From: a virus
Length of the DNA: 41,769 nucleotides
Virus record (IMG/VR): IMGVR_UViG_3300046513_000210
Coordinates: 1 to 41,769 of that record
Direction: 5' to 3' (one strand)
A model generated the notes under the pieces. It was not told the origin of the DNA. It made no database searches and saw only the letters and a program-made list of their open reading frames with translations. How positions within the stretch are numbered: the first letter of the stretch is position 1; each line of letters starts with the position of its first letter. The translations under genes were made by a program, and so were the position numbers. This document shows, piece after piece, positions 22,477 through 41,674 of the stretch.

Positions 22477-22686
22477 TTAAGCAGCCTTTGGAGACAGACT
22501 TGGGCGAAGGTCGATAGCCTTTATTTTTCCCATCGTGAGTCTTTCTGCACGTAGAGCTACCTCAGCCGAGCAGCCGTGAACGCCTCGAATCCAGCCGCTG
22601 ACTGAGCCTTGCTTGACCTTTAGGGCCTTGGCTGTTTTCGCCTGGGATCCGAAGTGAGCCACAAGCTTTTCAAATGTCGCGTTCAT
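22477..22686 (-). CDS. cro: Cro-like HTH repressor (YdaS/Cro family)
   Basis: 69 aa. FGSQAKTAKALKVKQGSVSGWIRG is an HTH. Divergent from cI across the operators. Confidence 0.85.
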   Translation of the reverse strand: MNATFEKLVAHFGSQAKTAKALKVKQGSVSGWIRGVHGCSAEVALRAERLTMGKIKAIDLRPSLSPKAA

Positions 22687-22766: not shown

Positions 22767-22775
22767 TTGTCTTGC

Positions 22776-23516
22776 ATGGAACTTAAAGACAGATTGAAAC
22801 AAGCTCGGAAAAACGCCGGCCTAACCCAGGCTCAGCTCGCGGAGCTGGCGGGCATTAAGCAGTCGTCGATTTCTGAAATTGAACGCGGCCTTTCGCGTAC
22901 CAGTGGGCACCTGGTGAAAATCGCTCAAATTTGCCAGGTCGATCCAATCTGGCTTGCAGAGGGATACGGAACGGTTCATGCCCGAATAAAGGACGGCTAC
23001 AGAGTTCAAAGTGAGCCAAATGCAGAATTGCTTGGTGATCTGTCTGTATGGGATCACGGCGACCCTCTGGATGAGGACGATTGTGAAGTGCCGTATTACG
23101 ACCAAGTTGAGTTTGCTGGCGGTGGCGGGATGACGGAAGTCATAGAAATTACAGATCGGAAACTCCGATTCAGTAACTCTACGCTCCGCTCTGCTGGTGT
23201 TGATTGCAAAAGCGCAGCATGTGCAAGGGTTCACGGCCGTAGCATGGAGAGATTAATTCTCCATGGAGCAGCAATCGGCTTTGACCGCTCCGACACGTCA
23301 ATTATTGACGGGGAGATCTACGCTTTTAACCATGGCGGAATGCTGCGAGTGAAGTACCTTTACCGTCTTCCGGCGGGCTCCGTAAGAATTCGGAGTGAAA
23401 ACACTGAGGATTATCCGGACGAGACCATGAGCGCAGATGAGTTCCGGGAAGAAGTAAAAATGCTCGGTCGTGTCTTCTGGTGGTCGACTGTTCGCAGGTC
23501 GCCTCGCAGAGCTTAA
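22776..23516 (+). CDS. cI: CI-type prophage repressor (XRE HTH plus S24 LexA-like autopeptidase)
   Basis: LTQAQLAELAGIKQSSISEIERG is an HTH. Ala-Gly site in EFAGGGG, Ser in HGRSM, Lys in LRVKYL. ATG 22776 lies ~10 nt after the PRM -10, so the mRNA is probably leaderless. Confidence 0.9.
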   Translation: MELKDRLKQARKNAGLTQAQLAELAGIKQSSISEIERGLSRTSGHLVKIAQICQVDPIWLAEGYGTVHARIKDGYRVQSEPNAELLGDLSVWDHGDPLDEDDCEVPYYDQVEFAGGGGMTEVIEITDRKLRFSNSTLRSAGVDCKSAACARVHGRSMERLILHGAAIGFDRSDTSIIDGEIYAFNHGGMLRVKYLYRLPAGSVRIRSENTEDYPDETMSADEFREEVKMLGRVFWWSTVRRSPRRA

Positions 23517-23534
23517 ATTAGCACTGCATCCCAA

Positions 23535-23560
23535 GCCCCTCTCTCGAGGGGCTTTTTTTT
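23535..23560 (+). terminator. Intrinsic terminator after cI
   Basis: GCCCCTC-tctc-GAGGGGC followed by TTTTTTTT. Confidence 0.85.
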
Positions 23561-23577
23561 GCCTACAACAAAATTAA

Positions 23578-23649
23578 AAAGGCATCCCAATACGAAAATG
23601 AAAATATAAAGGCATACCTGTTGACACAAAATAAAGGCAAGCCTATATT
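23578..23649 (+). promoter_or_regulatory. OL region with PL: TTGACA, 17-bp spacer, TATATT
   Basis: Operator copies: AAAGGCATCCCAAT (23578-91), AAAGGCATACCTGT (23608-21), AAAGGCAAGCCTAT (23633-46). The -35 is at 23621-26 and the -10 at 23644-49. Confidence 0.75.
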
Positions 23650-23686
23650 TTACTCAAGCCGATATGGCCAGCAGCGAAAGCCGCGC

Positions 23687-23729
23687 CGTTCTTTAACAAA
23701 CTGAAGACGAACCCTGATTGCGATCAGGG
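23687..23729 (+). promoter_or_regulatory. nutL-like site: boxA-like CGTTCTTTAACAA plus a boxB-like hairpin
   Basis: 23687-99 matches the rrn boxA consensus TGCTCTTTAACAA at 11 of 13 positions. Twelve nt downstream is CCCTGAT-TGCG-ATCAGGG (23712-29). Confidence 0.5.
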
Positions 23730-23859
23730 AACAACAACGCAACACGGCCTGCTTCCGTGCCCGGTAACTCGGCACGCAAGGTTCGCCGCTGATGGACATC
23801 ATCACTGAGCAGCCTTCTCGCGAGGGCTGCTTGGGATGACAACCGACAGGTAATCAACC

Positions 23860-24171
23860 ATGAAGCACTCAACAGCAATTGCTCTGCTCGAAATTCACGC
23901 ATCTAACTGCGAGAACAACGCGGTGATTCAAGAGCGCGAAGGTCAGTTCGAAGACGCGGCGAATTGCCGTAGCAACGCAGTCGACTACCGCGCGGCAATC
24001 GCAGAACTGCAGCCCGCTTCTGCACTGTCAGAAGCCTGGAGCGTGAAGATGCAGGCGACAGCGGAAGGAAAGTATGTCGCCACCGGCATCGGTCTCGGTT
24101 TGGGAGAAAGCAGCGGGCAATTTCTAGTCAGCGCCGATCGGTTTGCGACTGCTTCACCACAGGCCGAGTGA
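23860..24171 (+). CDS. 103-aa protein whose C-terminal third is homologous to an internal segment of the J tail-tip protein
   Basis: AWSVKMQATAEGKYVATGIGLGLGESSGQFLVSADRFA versus J MWSVKMQVTSNGQYVAAGIGLGIENTGAGLQSQFLVSADRFA. It is the first ORF after PL/nutL. The RBS is weak. Confidence 0.6.
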   Translation: MKHSTAIALLEIHASNCENNAVIQEREGQFEDAANCRSNAVDYRAAIAELQPASALSEAWSVKMQATAEGKYVATGIGLGLGESSGQFLVSADRFATASPQAE

Positions 24172-24393
24172 ACATCGCTTCTGCAACTTGGCGACAGGGT
24201 GCAGCGGGATGCGGAAGCCAACCCAGCAGACGCTGGACACCTGCAGGCAACACCAGAGACCGGCGAGCGCCCGCCAGAATGCCAACGGCGCGCATTGGAG
24301 GATGACCAACATGAAATAGACCAACGCTTCAACTTGGGTAGCGAAGAAAGCCTGCAGTATTCGCTCGAGACTCCATGAACAGGCAGCGGACAT
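24154..24393 (-). CDS. Possible 79-aa Cys/Trp-rich hydrophobic protein, convergent with the PL operon
   Basis: ORF 24154..24441. Hand count of third-codon positions over 24181-24240 gives 18/20 G or C, against 9/20 and 12/20 at the other two positions. No comparable plus-strand ORF exists. Hydrophobic stretch ALVYFMLVILQCAPLAFWRALAGLWCCL. Confidence 0.4.
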   Translation of the reverse strand: MSAACSWSLERILQAFFATQVEALVYFMLVILQCAPLAFWRALAGLWCCLQVSSVCWVGFRIPLHPVAKLQKRCSLGLW

Positions 24394-24542
24394 CTTGGTC
24401 GACGGTGTCACCGCGCACCAGCCGGGCAACCGGTAGGCCAACCCCTAGCGACGACACACCGATGATGATTCAACCCCAGGCTGTCGCCAGTAGCGAGCCT
24501 GGTGGGCTTCTCACGTAGGGAGGTCTTCGTGTGAAGCAAACG

Positions 24543-24572
24543 AAAAAGCCCGGGTGATCTCGGGCTTTTTTT
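24543..24572. terminator. Strong bidirectional intrinsic terminator (tL-like)
   Basis: AAAAAGCCCG-ggtgatct-CGGGCTTTTTTT. Confidence 0.8.
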
Positions 24573-24675
24573 CGCCTCGCCTTTATCCGTCAGCACTCTC
24601 CCCTGTGCCCAACGGCAACCAGCATGCGGCGCCGAGTGCTGACGAATACATGCAAGCCAATCCACGGAGTCAGCC

Positions 24676-24867
24676 ATGAGCGAGCAACGAGCGCCATTTC
24701 CACGTTCGGCAGATAACGCCGACCAAATGAATTTGCCAGAAGGAAAAACCTGCGGCGACTGCGTGCACTGCCGTCGCTGCACGGTGATGTTCGGGCACAT
24801 CCCGGAGGACGAATCCTGCGACTGGAGCCCGTCGCGCTTTCGTGAAGCTGTGCCAGCTACCGCATAA
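24676..24867 (+). CDS. 63-aa Cys-rich hypothetical protein
   Basis: GGAG lies 7 nt upstream. CGDCVHCRRC cluster plus a fifth Cys. Confidence 0.65.
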   Translation: MSEQRAPFPRSADNADQMNLPEGKTCGDCVHCRRCTVMFGHIPEDESCDWSPSRFREAVPATA

Positions 24868-37972: not shown

Positions 37973-40900
37973 TCACCCCAAATAGCCGAGACGAACGCGC
38001 AATACATTGTTCGCGTCATAGACCGAAACGTTGAGAGAGTTGATCACCAGCCGCCCCTGACCAGGAACAATGCCGTTGATCTCCAGCGTGCCGTCCTTGT
38101 TGAGGATCCAGCCTTGTTGACCGGCGATGTAGTTGGTGGAGCTGATGTAGTTGCCAATCTTGGCGTTGGTGATTGCCCCGTCCATGATGAACGCCGAGTT
38201 CATAAACACCTGCCCGCCCTGCACCGCAAACGGAACCGAGATGGCACCGCCAGCGATAGTGTTCACGATGGCAAACCGATCAGCACTCACCAAGAACTGG
38301 CTTTGTAGTCCCGCTCCAGTATTTTCGATGCCCAAGCCAATACCGGCGGCGACATACTGGCCGTTCGAAGTGACCTGCATCTTCACTGACCACATCGTGG
38401 AAAGTTTGCCGGCGGTGTCTGCGTAAGCGGTCGAAGTCTGCTGGATAGCGGCGGTGTTCTGCTGAATCGCTGACCCGTTTTGCTGAATCGCCGAACCGTT
38501 CTGCCCGACCGACACAGTAAGCTGATCAATCTTGGTCGCCGTCGAGGACTGGTTGGTGACCACCACCTGTGTAAGCGATGAAACGTTGGCCGAGTTCTGC
38601 CCTACGCGCGCATCGAGAGTCTCGAGTCGTGTGGAGGTTGCGGACTGATTGGTAGCAACGACCTGCGTGAGCTCGCTTACATTGGCCGCGCTCTGGCCAA
38701 CCTGTGCATCCAGTGTCTCAACCTTCCGCGCCGACGCCTCAGTTTCAGTGGCGCGAACCTGCGATTCAGCGGCGATAGCAGCAGTACTGGCCCATGCTTT
38801 CAGTGCGCCAGCCAGATCCCCTTCCCCGTTATCGTCCCTCGCCGACGCACGCAGCGCTTCAGACGCCGTCGCTTGTGCGGTAACCACACCGTCGAGCTCA
38901 GTGATATCGATGGTGTTGAACGCGACCTGCTGCGCCAAACCGTTTGCCGTCTCGATAGACTGACCAACGTCCAGCCAGAAACCGGCGTCCGGCGGCGGCG
39001 TGTTGATTGGCACCTCGCTTTTGGCCTGGAAGATGCGGCCGTCCGCAATGACCATCTGATCTTTCTCATAGACCTGATCAGACTTGTATGCGGAAAGGCC
39101 ATCCAGCGCATCGATCTGTGCCTGTATCCCCGGGATTTTCTGAATTTCGTCCAGCAGATCTTTGCCGAGCTCCGTCTCTGTGATCTGGCCGGCAATCATG
39201 TCGAGGATGTCGCTCGCGCTCGAGCTTGATTGGCCTTGCACGCCAATCCCGATTGGATACCATGGGCCAATGTTGCCGATTTTGTCGACGATCCTCCCCC
39301 AGAAATAAAAGGTCACGCCTGCCGCAAGCCCGAGCATGGAAAAATCGCTCTGTGGGTATGCCAGGTCGGTCAGTTTGGTTGCAGCCTCGAGGCTGGTCGT
39401 AGGCCCGTACCAGATTTCCGTCCGCTGACTGTCTTCCGCTCCGGCGGGGAATCCCCATTTCAGATAGATGCCGAACAGCAGCGGCGTGGCTGTCAGATAA
39501 CTGAGAGCTGGTGGCAAGCCCTCCTTCCCCTTCAGATTCGTCAGGATCGAATTGCGCCAAGGCGACGTGATGTCGAAGGCACTCACTGCGCGAACCCGGG
39601 CCACATACGCGCCAGCGTAGATGCCAACCACATCAACGTTGGTCAAGCCTGTGCGCTGCACCTTGATCCAGTTGCCGCTGTCCTTGCGCCATTCGACGTC
39701 ATAGCCAACCGCGCCATCCACAGCGGGCCAACTGATCGTCATGGTGGCCACGGCCATTCCCTGAACAATCGACGATGTCGACGCGAGGGCTACGCTGGCC
39801 GGCGCCGGCACCACGGTGATTGGAATGACGCTGATTGGACGCTCTTCCAGCCGCGCGCCCGTGTCAATGTAGGCGAACTTGCTCGGCTCGAACTGCAGCG
39901 CGCTGATCTCGAAGTCGCCTTCGGTTGTGCGCTTGGTGCGCAGCACGCGATACAGCGGGATCGCAAGATCGTCAGCATCCAACGCCCATTGCAGCTGCGC
40001 GATCGGTGGTTCGCTGTAGGCGACAGTCACGGTCACGGCGCGGCCGTTGACGCTCAGCACGGTGCGACCTTCGGCGCGGCCGCCAGGCAGGTTGATGATC
40101 AGTCGATCACCGGCCTTGGCCTGGGTGTCGCGATCGAGCGTAATGACCCTGCCGGCCGCCTTCGAAATGCGGCCGCCGACTTCACGCCCCGCGAGAAGTG
40201 AATCGGCCACCGGGATGATATGCCCAGGCAACGGGATGACGCCTTCCATACCGGTTTTGAACGACACGGTGCGGTCTTGGTTGTTGCTGAGGATTGCCCA
40301 CTTTCCGCGCCGCTGCGCCTCGGACGCGCGCGTGCAGCCAATGGCGCTCAGCTCAGTCGGCCGATCACCATAGCGACGTTGCAGATCCAGATCGGCAAAC
40401 GGAATGACGTCGGTGTCGTAGTTGTTCGCGGGGTTGTCGTAGCTGACCAGAGCTCGGGTGTAACGGGTTTTCGCCGAGGCGCTGCCGTAGGAGAACTTAC
40501 CGTCGATGACGTTCGAGCGGGTGAAGACGTAATCGATGTCCTGCGCGCGTGGCATGTCGGCCTGCATCACCAACTGGCCTTGCGCCCAATACGTCATGCC
40601 TCGGTAGATCGCCGAGATATCGCGCAGCAGCGACCAGGCATCGGCCTTGCCTTGCAGGTTCATATCGCAAAGGAAACGCGGCTCGGTACCGCCAAGCCCG
40701 TTCGGCACCAACTGGTCGCAGTACTGCGCGATCCGGTACAGCTCCCACTTATCGACCATGAACGGCTTGATGCGCTTACCCAAACCGAATCGATCTTCGG
40801 TGCAAACGCCGTAGGTGATCCATGCGGGGTTATTCGTCCAGGCGGACTTCATCGATCCGTCCCACGTACCGGTATAGGTGCGCTGCACTGGATCATAGGT

Positions 40901-41674
40901 GCTCGGCACCATCCAGCGCCGTGCCTTGCACTTCACGGTCACGGCCGGGATGTTGGTGAACTGTTCGGCGTCGAACTCGATATAGAGCAGCGCGGTATTC
41001 GGGTACCGCAGCTTGGCGTCGATCACCTCGGTATAACCGGCCACCAGCATGGTGTCAGCGATCTTGTTGCTGTTCTGGTTCGGCGTCAGGCGGCGCACCC
41101 GGATCTGCCAACCCGTTGTTGCTTCGGGCAGGTCGATACGGCGGGAGCGCTCGTAGCGCGTGGTGGTCTTGCCGTCGACCGCGTCCACCAGCACCTGCTG
41201 ATAGGCGCCGCCATCGGTGGCCACGTCGATTGCGTACTCGATGCGGTACCCGCCGATGTTGCCTTCGTCGTCTGCCCGTTGCAGCGCCGGCCACGCCAAG
41301 CGCACCCGCACCGCCGACAATTGAATGTTGCTAATGGAGCGCACCCAAGCCGCGTCGCTGCGCAGTTCGATGTTCAGCGATGTCTCGTTCTCCACGGACG
41401 GAATGCCCGGGATGTAGGTTTGATCCACGGAGCCCGGGCGCCAGTCCCACTTCACATTGGGGAAGTTGTAGTTGCCGCTGGCATCGCGGATCGGCGTGTT
41501 GTCCAGATAGATGTCGTAGTCGGTCGGGATCCCGTCGAACTCACCCTCGCCCACCGCGATCAGCAGCTTTGCCAGGTTGGTCGAGCGCAGGCTGTCGCTG
41601 GCTTCGACCGGCGACTTCGGCTTGCTGCTGCCGCCCTTCTCACCGTGGATCTCGATCTGTTCTGCTGCGCCCAT
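37973..41674 (-). CDS. J: Host specificity / central tail fibre protein J
   Basis: 1233 aa, collinear by eye with lambda J: the N-terminal GGSSKPKSPVEA..LRST, YPNTALL, GGTEPRF and the MWSVK...GIGL...SQFLV...RFA motifs. It lacks a lambda-type C-terminal receptor domain. Confidence 0.93.
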   Translation of the reverse strand: MGAAEQIEIHGEKGGSSKPKSPVEASDSLRSTNLAKLLIAVGEGEFDGIPTDYDIYLDNTPIRDASGNYNFPNVKWDWRPGSVDQTYIPGIPSVENETSLNIELRSDAAWVRSISNIQLSAVRVRLAWPALQRADDEGNIGGYRIEYAIDVATDGGAYQQVLVDAVDGKTTTRYERSRRIDLPEATTGWQIRVRRLTPNQNSNKIADTMLVAGYTEVIDAKLRYPNTALLYIEFDAEQFTNIPAVTVKCKARRWMVPSTYDPVQRTYTGTWDGSMKSAWTNNPAWITYGVCTEDRFGLGKRIKPFMVDKWELYRIAQYCDQLVPNGLGGTEPRFLCDMNLQGKADAWSLLRDISAIYRGMTYWAQGQLVMQADMPRAQDIDYVFTRSNVIDGKFSYGSASAKTRYTRALVSYDNPANNYDTDVIPFADLDLQRRYGDRPTELSAIGCTRASEAQRRGKWAILSNNQDRTVSFKTGMEGVIPLPGHIIPVADSLLAGREVGGRISKAAGRVITLDRDTQAKAGDRLIINLPGGRAEGRTVLSVNGRAVTVTVAYSEPPIAQLQWALDADDLAIPLYRVLRTKRTTEGDFEISALQFEPSKFAYIDTGARLEERPISVIPITVVPAPASVALASTSSIVQGMAVATMTISWPAVDGAVGYDVEWRKDSGNWIKVQRTGLTNVDVVGIYAGAYVARVRAVSAFDITSPWRNSILTNLKGKEGLPPALSYLTATPLLFGIYLKWGFPAGAEDSQRTEIWYGPTTSLEAATKLTDLAYPQSDFSMLGLAAGVTFYFWGRIVDKIGNIGPWYPIGIGVQGQSSSSASDILDMIAGQITETELGKDLLDEIQKIPGIQAQIDALDGLSAYKSDQVYEKDQMVIADGRIFQAKSEVPINTPPPDAGFWLDVGQSIETANGLAQQVAFNTIDITELDGVVTAQATASEALRASARDDNGEGDLAGALKAWASTAAIAAESQVRATETEASARKVETLDAQVGQSAANVSELTQVVATNQSATSTRLETLDARVGQNSANVSSLTQVVVTNQSSTATKIDQLTVSVGQNGSAIQQNGSAIQQNTAAIQQTSTAYADTAGKLSTMWSVKMQVTSNGQYVAAGIGLGIENTGAGLQSQFLVSADRFAIVNTIAGGAISVPFAVQGGQVFMNSAFIMDGAITNAKIGNYISSTNYIAGQQGWILNKDGTLEINGIVPGQGRLVINSLNVSVYDANNVLRVRLGYLG

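What the first reader, a model, noticed from the sequence alone, without database searches (positions are those of the whole stretch)
23860..24171. Early-operon ORF carrying a diverged copy of an internal J tail-tip motif
The first ORF after PL/nutL is the position of N in lambda. Its C-terminal ~40 aa align with J residues encoded at ~38260-38395: about 26 identities over ~38 aligned positions by hand. This includes the WSVKMQ, YVA.GIGLG and QFLVSADRFA blocks that lambda J also conserves. DNA identity is only roughly two thirds, so this is not a recent duplication or an assembly artefact. A cytoplasmic, early-expressed fragment of a tail-tip trimerisation or assembly motif could have several roles (inference). 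It could be a dominant-negative inhibitor of tail-tip assembly of co-infecting relatives, a timing device for self-assembly, or a decaying recombination scar.
Basis: partly seen in the sequence, partly recalled or inferred. Interest (0 to 1): 0.62.

Follow-up and report, generated by a model that had tools for sequence, protein, structure and literature searches.

The report
Tail-fibre fragment inside an early phage gene
The first gene this Pseudomonas phage switches on is a small, conserved 53-residue protein with a 50-residue piece of the phage's tail-tip fibre protein spliced in frame near its end, and the evolutionary pattern suggests this rare add-on has been kept because it is useful, not as decaying debris.

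Summary
ORF 23860..24171 (103 aa) matches the phage's own J protein (BLASTP E=5e-16) and Pfam Phage_Tail_Tip/DUF1983 (34 bits, cut-off 22).

New here: the ORF is a 53-aa helical-hairpin early protein, exactly 53 aa in about 50 related loci. It carries a precise in-frame 150-bp cassette (24013..24162) two codons before its stop. The cassette encodes the end of the helix bundle and the first three strands of J's central straight fibre (lambda J 860-907).

Only three loci carry it at this site: this phage, one metagenome contig and Pseudomonas sp. PDM10. It is not a recent copy of J: nucleotide identity is 57% and synonymous sites are saturated.

The two sequenced alleles are 51% identical, yet their flanks are 85-96% identical to cassette-free alleles. 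They keep 16-17 of 20 J-invariant residues (pN 0.37, pS 0.84). This argues for purifying selection, assuming a single origin.

A second family member (Pseudomonas sp. MG-9) probably carries a different piece of the same J domain at the same gene end.

Function is unknown. I favour a self-association or J-docking module. A tolerated scar is less likely but is not excluded.

The parts
22767..23516 (+). cI-type repressor gene (context). It is followed by the leftward early operon on the + strand.
   Evidence: ORF list. The syntenic genes in relatives L001, L002 and L077 hit Peptidase_S24.
23533..23554 (+). Intrinsic terminator of the repressor transcript.
   Evidence: 9-bp stem followed by a T run.
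23621..23649 (+). PL-like sigma-70 promoter, TTGACA-17-TATATT.
   Evidence: 11 of 12 consensus matches.
23650..23859 (+). Leader of about 210 nt with hairpins. The last ~45 nt, including the ribosome-binding region, are nearly identical in relatives.
   Evidence: Alignment with L001. BLASTN to 30+ loci starts at about 23791-23800.
23860..24171 (+). Chimeric immediate-early gene, 103 aa.
   Evidence: It is the only frame open through the cassette in both sequenced alleles.
23860..24012 (+). Codons 1-51: body of the conserved 53-aa early protein family (helical hairpin, single TPR-like repeat, phrog_3376-like).
   Evidence: 66-80% identity to about 55 family loci, nearly all exactly 53 aa. omega 0.18 against L001. 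AlphaFold2 gives helices 2-26 and 30-50 with pLDDT about 95. TPR-repeat hits.
24013..24162 (+). 150-bp in-frame cassette (50 codons) that encodes the J tip-domain fragment: the end of the helix bundle plus the first three strands of the central straight fibre. It is flanked by CAG on both sides.
   Evidence: In relatives, homology runs to 24012 and resumes at 24160 with the two points adjacent. PF09327 positions 14-64. Lambda J 860-907. AlphaFold2 strands 56-66, 72-81 and 88-91.
24163..24171 (+). Retained last two codons (Ala-Glu) and stop codon of the 53-aa gene.
   Evidence: Matches the ...LQAE* end of cassette-free relatives.
24173..24211 (+). Conserved element of about 40 nt at the gene boundary, directly after the stop codon. 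It is a possible recombination linker.
   Evidence: Found at +171 from the ATG in 9 relatives and at -52 (upstream of the gene) in 4 others. There is a single copy in the window.
24543..24575 (+). tL-like bidirectional terminator that closes the short immediate-early transcript.
   Evidence: 10-bp stem with T runs on both strands. The region is conserved in most relatives.
37973..41674 (-). J-type central tail fibre / tip attachment gene, 1233 aa.
   Evidence: Pfam FNIII-A_GpJ, Phage-tail_3 and Phage_Tail_Tip; phrog_31.
38249..38419 (-). J codons 1086-1142, the segment homologous to the cassette.
   Evidence: BLASTP and tblastn. Codon alignment gives 57% nt identity, 30 of 53 aa identical, pS 0.76 and pN 0.32.

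Best explanation
SHOWN: The ORF is a real gene and a chimera. Its body is a member of a conserved 53-aa helical-hairpin protein family. In Pseudomonas lambdoid (pro)phages this family is the first conserved gene after the PL-type promoter and lies before a terminator, so it is immediate-early. A 150-bp cassette sits in frame between codon 51 and the last two codons. The cassette encodes the junction between the alpha-helical bundle and the central straight fibre of a J-type tail tip protein, which is the first three beta-strands of PF09327. It is not copied from this phage's J in recent times. It is a rare allele, found in 3 of about 58 loci at the same codon with the same length.

INFERRED: The cassette is old and moves between phage backgrounds by homologous recombination in its flanks. 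If it arose once, it has been under purifying selection in place. Synonymous sites are saturated, yet the residues that never vary in J are kept.

MECHANISM (inferred, about 35-40% for the self-association or J-docking module overall; no single sub-reading exceeds about 35%): In J these strands exist only as one layer of an intertwined trimeric beta-prism. I therefore take the cassette to be a self-contained beta-layer that gives the small early protein a new association surface. Most likely it makes the protein self-associate as a trimer. Alternatively it lets the protein dock by strand complementation onto the homologous region of unassembled J chains. The activity of the 53-aa body is unknown. 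It is acidic and is not an N-type antiterminator.
For: (1) Chimera: homology with more than 30 relatives runs to 24012 and resumes at 24160, and the two points are adjacent in the relatives. 35 of 37 and then 16 of 18 further family loci encode proteins of exactly 53 aa.
(2) J origin: BLASTP E=5e-16. PF09327 at 34.3 bits. Lambda J residues 860-907, which lie at the AHS/CSF junction described in PMC11101478.
(3) Same site, same 150-bp length and the same loop length (4-5 residues shorter than in J) in window, L001 and PDM10.
(4) Age: cassette against own J is 57% nt identical with pS 0.76. The window and L001 cassettes are 51% nt identical with pS 0.84, while the adjacent gene body has pS 0.47. 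Cassette GC3 is 0.56-0.60, like the gene body (0.61) and unlike J (0.75).
(5) Selection: pN 0.37 against pS 0.84, Fisher p=1e-7. Neutral simulation expects 15 of 53 identical residues to J and 30 are observed, P<5e-5. The cassettes keep 17/20 and 16/20 J-invariant residues but only 13/33 and 8/33 variable ones. There are no indels between the two alleles. Only the J frame is open in both. In the PDM10 allele, 7 of 52 cassette residues differ from L001 and none is a J-invariant core residue.
(6) Recombinational spread: the L001 gene body is 96% identical to the cassette-free L015. 5 of the 7 mismatches lie in the 27 nt next to the cassette, Fisher p=6.5e-4.
(7) Fold: AlphaFold2 gives a confident helical hairpin followed by a beta-hairpin at pLDDT 76-81.
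(8) Recurrence: the family member from Pseudomonas sp. MG-9 carries a different low-GC cassette at the same gene end. Its peptide matches the next block of the tip domain: hhalign E=3e-4, and its HMM score exceeds all 3000 shuffles.
(9) Immediate-early position.
Against: DNA is available for only two cassette alleles, and PDM10 is known as protein only. The selection argument assumes that the two alleles descend from one insertion. If they were captured independently, part of the pN<pS signal was earned inside the donor genes. A tree of the motif is unresolved: monophyly of the two cassettes is neither supported nor rejected (p-AU 0.30), and L001's cassette leans weakly toward the phrog_18217 proteins. 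The cassette evolves faster than the gene body. Between PDM10 and L001, 7 of 52 cassette residues differ against 2 of 51 in the body. The third strand and tail are poorly predicted (pLDDT 43-59). More than 90% of family members do without the cassette, so it is dispensable for the basic role. The MG-9 match is weak: Pfam itself is silent and hhalign probability is 40%.
Confidence: 0.6

Rival explanations
1. Tolerated recombination scar. An illegitimate join at a recombination-prone gene boundary happened to add a J fragment in frame. The activity lies entirely in the 53-aa body, and the tail is neutral or nearly neutral baggage that has not yet been lost.
For: The 3' end of this gene family is a hot spot for odd C-terminal tails: P0003 at 62 aa, P0017 at 80 aa, P0047 at 161 aa, P0055 at 94 aa and MG-9 at 79 aa. 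A mobile boundary element sits right after the stop codon. The cassette is rare, in 3 of about 58 loci. It changes faster than the body. An in-frame, correctly oriented insertion has a chance of about 1 in 6. The chance of staying free of stops under neutral change is about 0.17-0.19 per lineage.
Against: Synonymous sites are saturated, yet 16-17 of 20 J-invariant residues survive in each allele, against a neutral expectation of about 15 of 53 identities to J where 30 are observed, P<5e-5. There are no indels in 150 bp, while the neighbouring intergenic DNA has several. Only the J frame is open in both alleles. The cassette has persisted while its flanks were replaced by recombination.
Confidence: 0.2
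2. The early-made J mimic co-assembles with J chains, either of co-infecting relatives or of the phage itself, and so blocks or delays tail-tip assembly. It would act as a dominant-negative inhibitor or a timing device.
For: The cassette is exactly the top layer of the trimeric straight fibre, preceded by a helix as in J. J proteins of Pseudomonas phages are almost invariant in this block, so one mimic could fit many of them. Two different pieces of the same domain appear to have been fused to this family.
Against: The mimic would also fit the phage's own J, with 17 of 20 invariant residues shared. It is made from an immediate-early promoter long before J. There is no evidence of any interaction. 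Most relatives lack the cassette. A single beta-layer may be too small to compete with full-length J trimerisation.
Confidence: 0.12
3. Decoy against host immunity that senses or modifies the central tail fibre. An example is the ubiquitin-like Bil system, which conjugates to the central tail fibre. An early, abundant fragment would soak up such a system.
For: A defence that targets the central tail fibre exists (bioRxiv 10.1101/2023.09.04.556158). Immediate-early timing fits a counter-defence. Rare, patchy, recombining accessory alleles are typical of counter-defence genes.
Against: This is purely an analogy. The part of the fibre that such systems recognise is not known from the text read. 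No defence system was linked to these hosts here.
Confidence: 0.05
4. Two or three independent captures of tip-domain fragments at one hot spot. In that case the conservation seen between alleles was inherited from the donor genes, either J or the small phrog_18217 tip-motif proteins, and does not reflect maintenance in place.
For: The cassettes are as far from each other (25/53 identical) as from J (24-30/53). L001's cassette groups weakly with phrog_18217 proteins. MG-9 shows that a second capture at this gene end did occur.
Against: The junction codon, the 150-bp net length and the loop length are identical in the alleles and were seen in no J or phrog_18217 protein examined. No donor-like gene with that loop length was found in viral or metagenome contigs. 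No J closer than about 68% over the core was found in 401 Pseudomonas genomes. L001 carries a short diverged flank next to the cassette, as expected if the cassette was imported from another fusion allele.
Confidence: 0.1

Closest known systems
Lambda gpJ central tail fibre: alpha-helical segment / central straight fibre junction (PF09327 Phage_Tail_Tip, formerly DUF1983; PDB 8iyk, 8xcj)
   Same: Cassette residues 57-100 align to lambda J 860-907 and to this phage's J 1086-1142. They share the W-x-V-K, G-I-G-L and Q-F-L-V-x-A-D/N-R blocks. The predicted fold is a beta-hairpin plus a third strand preceded by a helix.
   Different: Only about one third of the domain is present (profile positions 14-64 of 139). 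The host protein is 103 aa, not about 1200 aa. It has no hub, FNIII or receptor-binding parts. It is encoded in the immediate-early operon, not the tail cluster. The loop is 4-5 residues shorter.
53-aa early protein family of Pseudomonas lambdoid prophages (weakly phrog_3376, function unknown)
   Same: Residues 1-51 are 66-80% identical. The ribosome-binding region and the position downstream of the repressor are the same, as are the last residues and the stop codon.
   Different: All but a handful of members are exactly 53 aa. This one carries a 50-residue insert.
Lambda N and HK022 Nun (occupants of the first PL gene slot)
   Same: It is the first gene after PL, before a terminator, and is preceded by a long structured leader.
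   Different: It has no arginine-rich motif and is net acidic. It gives no Pfam or PHROG match to N or Nun. Nothing here shows antitermination activity.
phrog_18217 small tip-motif proteins (P0032 at 296 aa, P0045 at 113 aa, P0008 at 134 aa)
   Same: They are the other non-J proteins of this phage group that carry the same WSVKMQ...GIGLG...QFLVSADRFA block with a shortened loop. They are also encoded outside the tail cluster: in L076 the gene lies between the Q antiterminator and the holins.
   Different: They have different partners, namely J-distal motifs and a coiled coil. The motif order is permuted. They sit in a late-operon position. Their loop is even shorter. They show no relation to the 53-aa family.
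Mosaic module exchange and domain shuffling in tail-fibre genes of tailed phages
   Same: A short module with sharp boundaries sits next to a conserved boundary element and moves between backgrounds by recombination.
   Different: Here the recipient is a non-structural immediate-early gene, and the module appears to be retained under selection there.

Membership tests
PF09327 Phage_Tail_Tip (J central straight fibre domain) | Profile HMM score above Pfam's gathering cut-off | tested here: met
   34.3 bits against a cut-off of 22, E=2.4e-8. The L001 homologue scores 40.6 bits.
PF09327 Phage_Tail_Tip (J central straight fibre domain) | Complete domain (about 139 profile positions) | tested here: not met
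   Only positions 14-64 are matched. No continuation exists in any frame downstream.
J-type tip attachment / central tail fibre proteins | Large protein with hub and FNIII domains, encoded in the tail gene cluster | tested here: not met
   The protein is 103 aa and has no FNIII-A_GpJ or Phage-tail_3 domain. It lies between the repressor and a tL-like terminator.
J-type tip attachment / central tail fibre proteins | Assembly into an intertwined trimeric beta-prism | not testable with these tools
   Only monomer prediction was available. The monomer model shows a beta-hairpin at pLDDT 76-81.
53-aa early protein family (phrog_3376-like) | Sequence homology over the helical hairpin | tested here: met
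   66-80% identity over residues 1-51 to about 55 loci. phrog_3376 gives E=0.025 for this ORF and 1.7e-6 for a typical member.
53-aa early protein family (phrog_3376-like) | Position in the leftward early operon, downstream of the cI-type repressor | tested here: met
   The synteny is the same in L001, L002 and L077 and in the window.
53-aa early protein family (phrog_3376-like) | Length of 53 aa, ending ...ALQAE | tested here: not met
   The ORF is 103 aa because of the 150-bp insert. The final AE and the stop codon are retained.
Lambda N-type antiterminators | Arginine-rich RNA-binding motif and an N-family profile match | tested here: not met
   No N-family hit in Pfam or PHROGs. The sequence is acidic, with three Arg in the first 51 residues.
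Lambda N-type antiterminators | First gene between PL and a terminator | tested here: met
   Promoter at 23621-23649 and terminator at about 24543-24575.
Lambda N-type antiterminators | boxA/boxB nut site in the leader | not tested
   Rfam found nothing above threshold in 23400-24800. The hairpins in the leader were not analysed further.
Diversity-generating retroelement (template/variable repeat pair) | Near-identical repeat pair that differs mainly at template adenines | tested here: not met
   The cassette and the J segment are only 57% identical, with differences at all base types and codon positions.

The most novel reading that the evidence does not exclude
Pseudomonas lambdoid phages have repeatedly grafted single layers of the J central-fibre beta-prism onto an immediate-early protein. 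This would create an early-expressed 'fibre mimic' that acts on fibre-directed processes. It might poison tail-tip assembly of competing co-infecting or resident phages, or soak up a host defence that recognises or modifies the central tail fibre. That would be a new class of phage-phage or anti-defence weapon built from a structural-protein fragment.
Probability: 0.15. Interest if true: 0.8.

Novelty: new variant of a known kind. Interest (0 to 1): 0.55.

Why it matters
Phage genomes are known to be mosaics, and tail-fibre modules are known to shuffle among tail genes. A fragment of a virion protein captured by a non-structural gene, at the very first gene the phage expresses, and then kept under selection, is unusual. 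It gives a compact, testable case of a structural motif re-used as a new protein-protein interface. If the fragment targets J-type fibres or fibre-directed host immunity, it would point to an unrecognised kind of interference between phages, or between phage and host. The system is small: a 150-bp cassette whose natural cassette-free alleles serve as controls. One carrier, Pseudomonas sp. PDM10, is recorded in NCBI as an isolate-genome entry (WP_192407384.1). If the strain is available, the question could be tested directly.

Tried and rejected
1. Recent duplication or assembly artefact: rejected. Nucleotide identity to J is 57% and synonymous sites are saturated.
2. Frameshifted longer J pseudogene: rejected. 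There is no J similarity beyond the ORF in any frame.
3. Diversity-generating retroelement template/variable pair: rejected on identity.
4. Invertible-segment or recombination substrate with J: the two copies are inverted, but the best stretch is 78% over 50 nt, and an inversion of 14 kb would be nonsensical. Not pursued.
5. The whole 53-aa family derived from the J helix bundle: rejected. Profile-profile probability is 3%. The N-terminal similarity is compositional. The N-half instead resembles one TPR repeat.
6. Antisense ORF 23985..24332 as the real gene: rejected. That frame has stops in L001.
7. Search for a close donor: nothing above about 68% identity over the core in 401 Pseudomonas genomes. 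No tip motif with this loop length in viral or metagenome contigs.
8. Search for more fusions:
   - none among 1.84 billion representatives;
   - none in viral contigs;
   - none in metagenome contigs;
   - a region-restricted search found only the query;
   - the cluster look-up did find PDM10.
9. Apparent downstream extensions of tblastn matches in L056, L010 and L014 read through a stop into a different gene and are chance.
10. Foldseek against the PDB gave nothing significant.
11. Phage GenBank records hold no 53-aa family member.
12. Attachment of side fibres to the straight fibre was considered as a clue. In Ur-lambda they attach at a collar on the tube instead.
13. A motif tree did not resolve the origin.

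Full report
WHAT IS THERE. The window is a complete 41.8-kb viral record with terminal repeats. It is a Pseudomonas lambdoid phage.
- A cro-like gene lies at 22477..22686 on the minus strand.
- A cI-type repressor lies at 22767..23516 on the plus strand and is followed by a terminator at 23533-23554.
- A near-consensus promoter, TTGACA-17-TATATT, lies at 23621-23649. It is followed by a 210-nt leader and then the ORF 23860..24171.
- About 370 nt further on there is a bidirectional terminator at about 24543-24575.
The ORF is therefore the only conserved gene on the unextended leftward early transcript, which is the slot N occupies in lambda. The product is acidic, has no arginine-rich motif and gives no N-family match.

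CHECK OF THE OBSERVATION. BLASTP of the 103-aa product against the phage's J protein (37973..41674, minus strand, 1233 aa) gives E=5e-16. In the core there are 28 identities over ORF residues 60-96. Pfam Phage_Tail_Tip (PF09327, formerly DUF1983) matches residues 54-100 at 34.3 bits against a cut-off of 22, covering profile positions 14-64 of 139. Several PHROG tail-fibre families match the same stretch. Solved lambda J chains align at residues 860-907 with the same conserved blocks. According to the lambda tail-LamB structure paper (PMC11101478), that is the end of the alpha-helical segment (841-861) and the top of the central straight fibre, a trimeric mixed beta-sheet prism. The J similarity stops at the ORF's end in all frames.

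THE ORF IS A CHIMERA. Homologues of similar size fall into two kinds. One is a 103-aa protein from a JGI metagenome contig (L001) with the same architecture. The others are many short proteins that match only residues 1-51.

Scans of viral, genome and metagenome contigs gave about 55 loci. In almost all of them the gene encodes exactly 53 aa of the type MKHATAIAQLEIHASNCENNAAIQEREGQFEDAANNRTNAADYRQAIEALQAE. These genes sit in the same position, downstream of the repressor.

DNA comparison shows homology to more than 30 relatives running up to 24012 and resuming at 24160, and these two points are adjacent in the relatives. The window therefore carries a clean 150-bp, 50-codon, in-frame insertion (24013..24162) between Gln51 and the final Ala-Glu-stop, with CAG on both sides.

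The 53-aa body is a confident helical hairpin: AlphaFold2 gives helices 2-26 and 30-50 at pLDDT about 95. It resembles a single TPR repeat and weakly matches phrog_3376, whose function is unknown. A profile-profile test does not support derivation of this body from the J helix bundle, with probability 3%.

HOW COMMON AND HOW OLD IS THE CASSETTE. Three loci carry it: the window, L001 and Pseudomonas sp. PDM10 (WP_192407384.1, from the 90% cluster of the L001 protein). No further fusion was found in any of these searches:
- 1.84 billion representative proteins;
- 401 Pseudomonas species genomes;
- pattern scans of viral and metagenome contigs.

The window and L001 cassettes have the same junction codon, the same length, and a loop shorter than that of J by the same 4-5 residues. 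That loop length was seen in no J or other tip-motif protein examined. Yet the two cassettes are only 51% identical in DNA (pS 0.84), while the flanks on both sides are 85-90% identical.

The gene body of L001 is 96% identical to a cassette-free allele (L015). Five of the seven mismatches lie in the 27 nt next to the cassette (Fisher p=6.5e-4). The window shows the same local excess of differences. I read this as an old allele that carries a short private flank and is moved between backgrounds by homologous recombination. Cassette GC3 (0.56-0.60) matches the early gene (0.61), not J (0.75). No J closer than about 68% over the core was found.

SELECTION. Between the two cassettes pN is 0.37 against pS 0.84 (Fisher p=1e-7). 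Against J the figures are similar. A neutral simulation with the observed number of nucleotide changes expects about 15 of 53 residues identical to J. 30 are observed, which none of 20,000 runs reached. The cassettes keep 17/20 and 16/20 of the residues that are at least 90% conserved in a panel of 37 J proteins, but only 13/33 and 8/33 of the variable ones. There is no indel between the alleles, whereas the adjoining non-coding DNA has several. Only the J reading frame is open in both alleles.

The PDM10 allele differs from L001 at 7 of 52 cassette residues. All seven lie in the linker, the loops or the tail, outside the J-invariant core. That is a faster rate than in the body, which differs at 2 of 51 residues.

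The caveat is that the argument for selection in place assumes a single origin. A tree of the 57-column motif is unresolved. Monophyly of the two cassettes is not rejected (p-AU 0.30), and L001 leans weakly toward the phrog_18217 proteins.

A SECOND FUSION. The family member from Pseudomonas sp. MG-9 (79 aa, locus L077, same synteny) has a different cassette of about 100 bp. Its GC is 43%, against 57-62% in the flanks, and it replaces the gene end after codon 47. Its peptide PVFLIDGEQVFINGALL aligns to the next conserved block of the tip domain, PFAVQGGQVFMNSAFI.
- hhalign gives E=3e-4 with probability 40%.
- Its score against a tip-domain HMM (9.3 bits) exceeds all 3000 composition-matched shuffles, whose maximum is 7.0.
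- Its best tblastn hits among all loci are J block-2 segments.
- Pfam itself does not detect it.
I found this by eye among about six odd C-terminal tails, so I rate it as probable, not proven. If it is real, two different layers of the same fibre domain have been joined independently to this early protein.

INTERPRETATION. Shown: a real immediate-early gene, a clean in-frame cassette of J-tip origin, rarity and great age of the cassette, and a conservation pattern that mirrors J. Inferred: maintenance by selection, and a folded beta-unit. In J these strands exist only as a layer of an intertwined trimer. The most economical mechanism is therefore a new association surface, either self-trimerisation of the early protein or docking onto homologous J chains. 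I give the selected-chimera reading about 0.6-0.7 overall. No single functional sub-reading gets more than about 0.35. Rivals, each with its own test, are:
- a tolerated scar at a recombination hot spot (0.2);
- independent captures (0.1);
- a decoy for fibre-directed host defence such as the Bil system (0.05).

LIMITS. No multimer prediction was available. DNA was obtained for only two of the three cassette carriers.

Noticed in passing
L076:4638-5042 (ENA metagenome scaffold); proteins P0008, P0032, P0045, P0057, P0060: The phrog_18217 family consists of small proteins of 113-296 aa that carry the same tip-domain blocks in permuted order (J-distal motif, then block 2, then block 1 with a very short loop, then a coiled coil). 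In L076 the gene lies between the Q antiterminator and the holin genes, not in the tail cluster. Their function is unknown. They are a possible donor of the cassette.
   Followed up: partly
window 24173-24251: A conserved element of about 40 nt lies directly after the stop codon. It recurs at +171 from the ATG in 9 relatives, at -52 (upstream of the same gene) in 4 others, and upstream of the GerE-type gene in L001 and L015. The adjoining 38 bp (24208-24245) are 100% and 97% identical in the otherwise unrelated Pseudomonas phages Aurca01 and Cruim01. It looks like a gene-boundary or linker element that promotes module exchange.
   Followed up: partly
L077:8141-8250 (Pseudomonas sp. MG-9, WP_215502523.1): A low-GC (43%) cassette replaces the 3' end of the 53-aa gene after codon 47. 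It adds a 32-residue tail that probably derives from the second block of the J tip domain.
   Followed up: yes
window 23809-23830 and L001:5958-5980: A hairpin lies just upstream of the ribosome-binding region. Its sequence differs between the two phages while pairing is kept (GCAGCC...GGCTGC in the window, GCACC...GGGTGC in L001). The ~40 nt after it are identical. It may be a conserved regulatory RNA structure in the PL leader.
   Followed up: no
L033, L034, L037 (viral and genome contigs): In these relatives the 53-aa gene is broken: frameshifted or truncated to 46 aa and 28 aa in L033 and L037, and lacking the usual ATG start and out of frame after about 29 codons in L034. The family is therefore not indispensable in every prophage.
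   Followed up: no
proteins P0047 (161 aa), P0055 (94 aa), P0017 (80 aa), P0003 (62 aa): These family members have other unrelated C-terminal tails. P0047 has a hydrophobic, lipobox-like segment (LLMLSGC) after the hairpin. The C-terminus of this family is a recurrent site of add-ons.
   Followed up: no
L001:5567-5950, L077:7623-7928: Some relatives have a GerE/LuxR-type regulator gene between the repressor and the 53-aa gene. The window lacks it.
   Followed up: no
window 23985-24332 (minus strand): A 115-aa antisense ORF runs through the cassette. It is open only in the window and has stops in L001, so it is probably spurious.
   Followed up: yes
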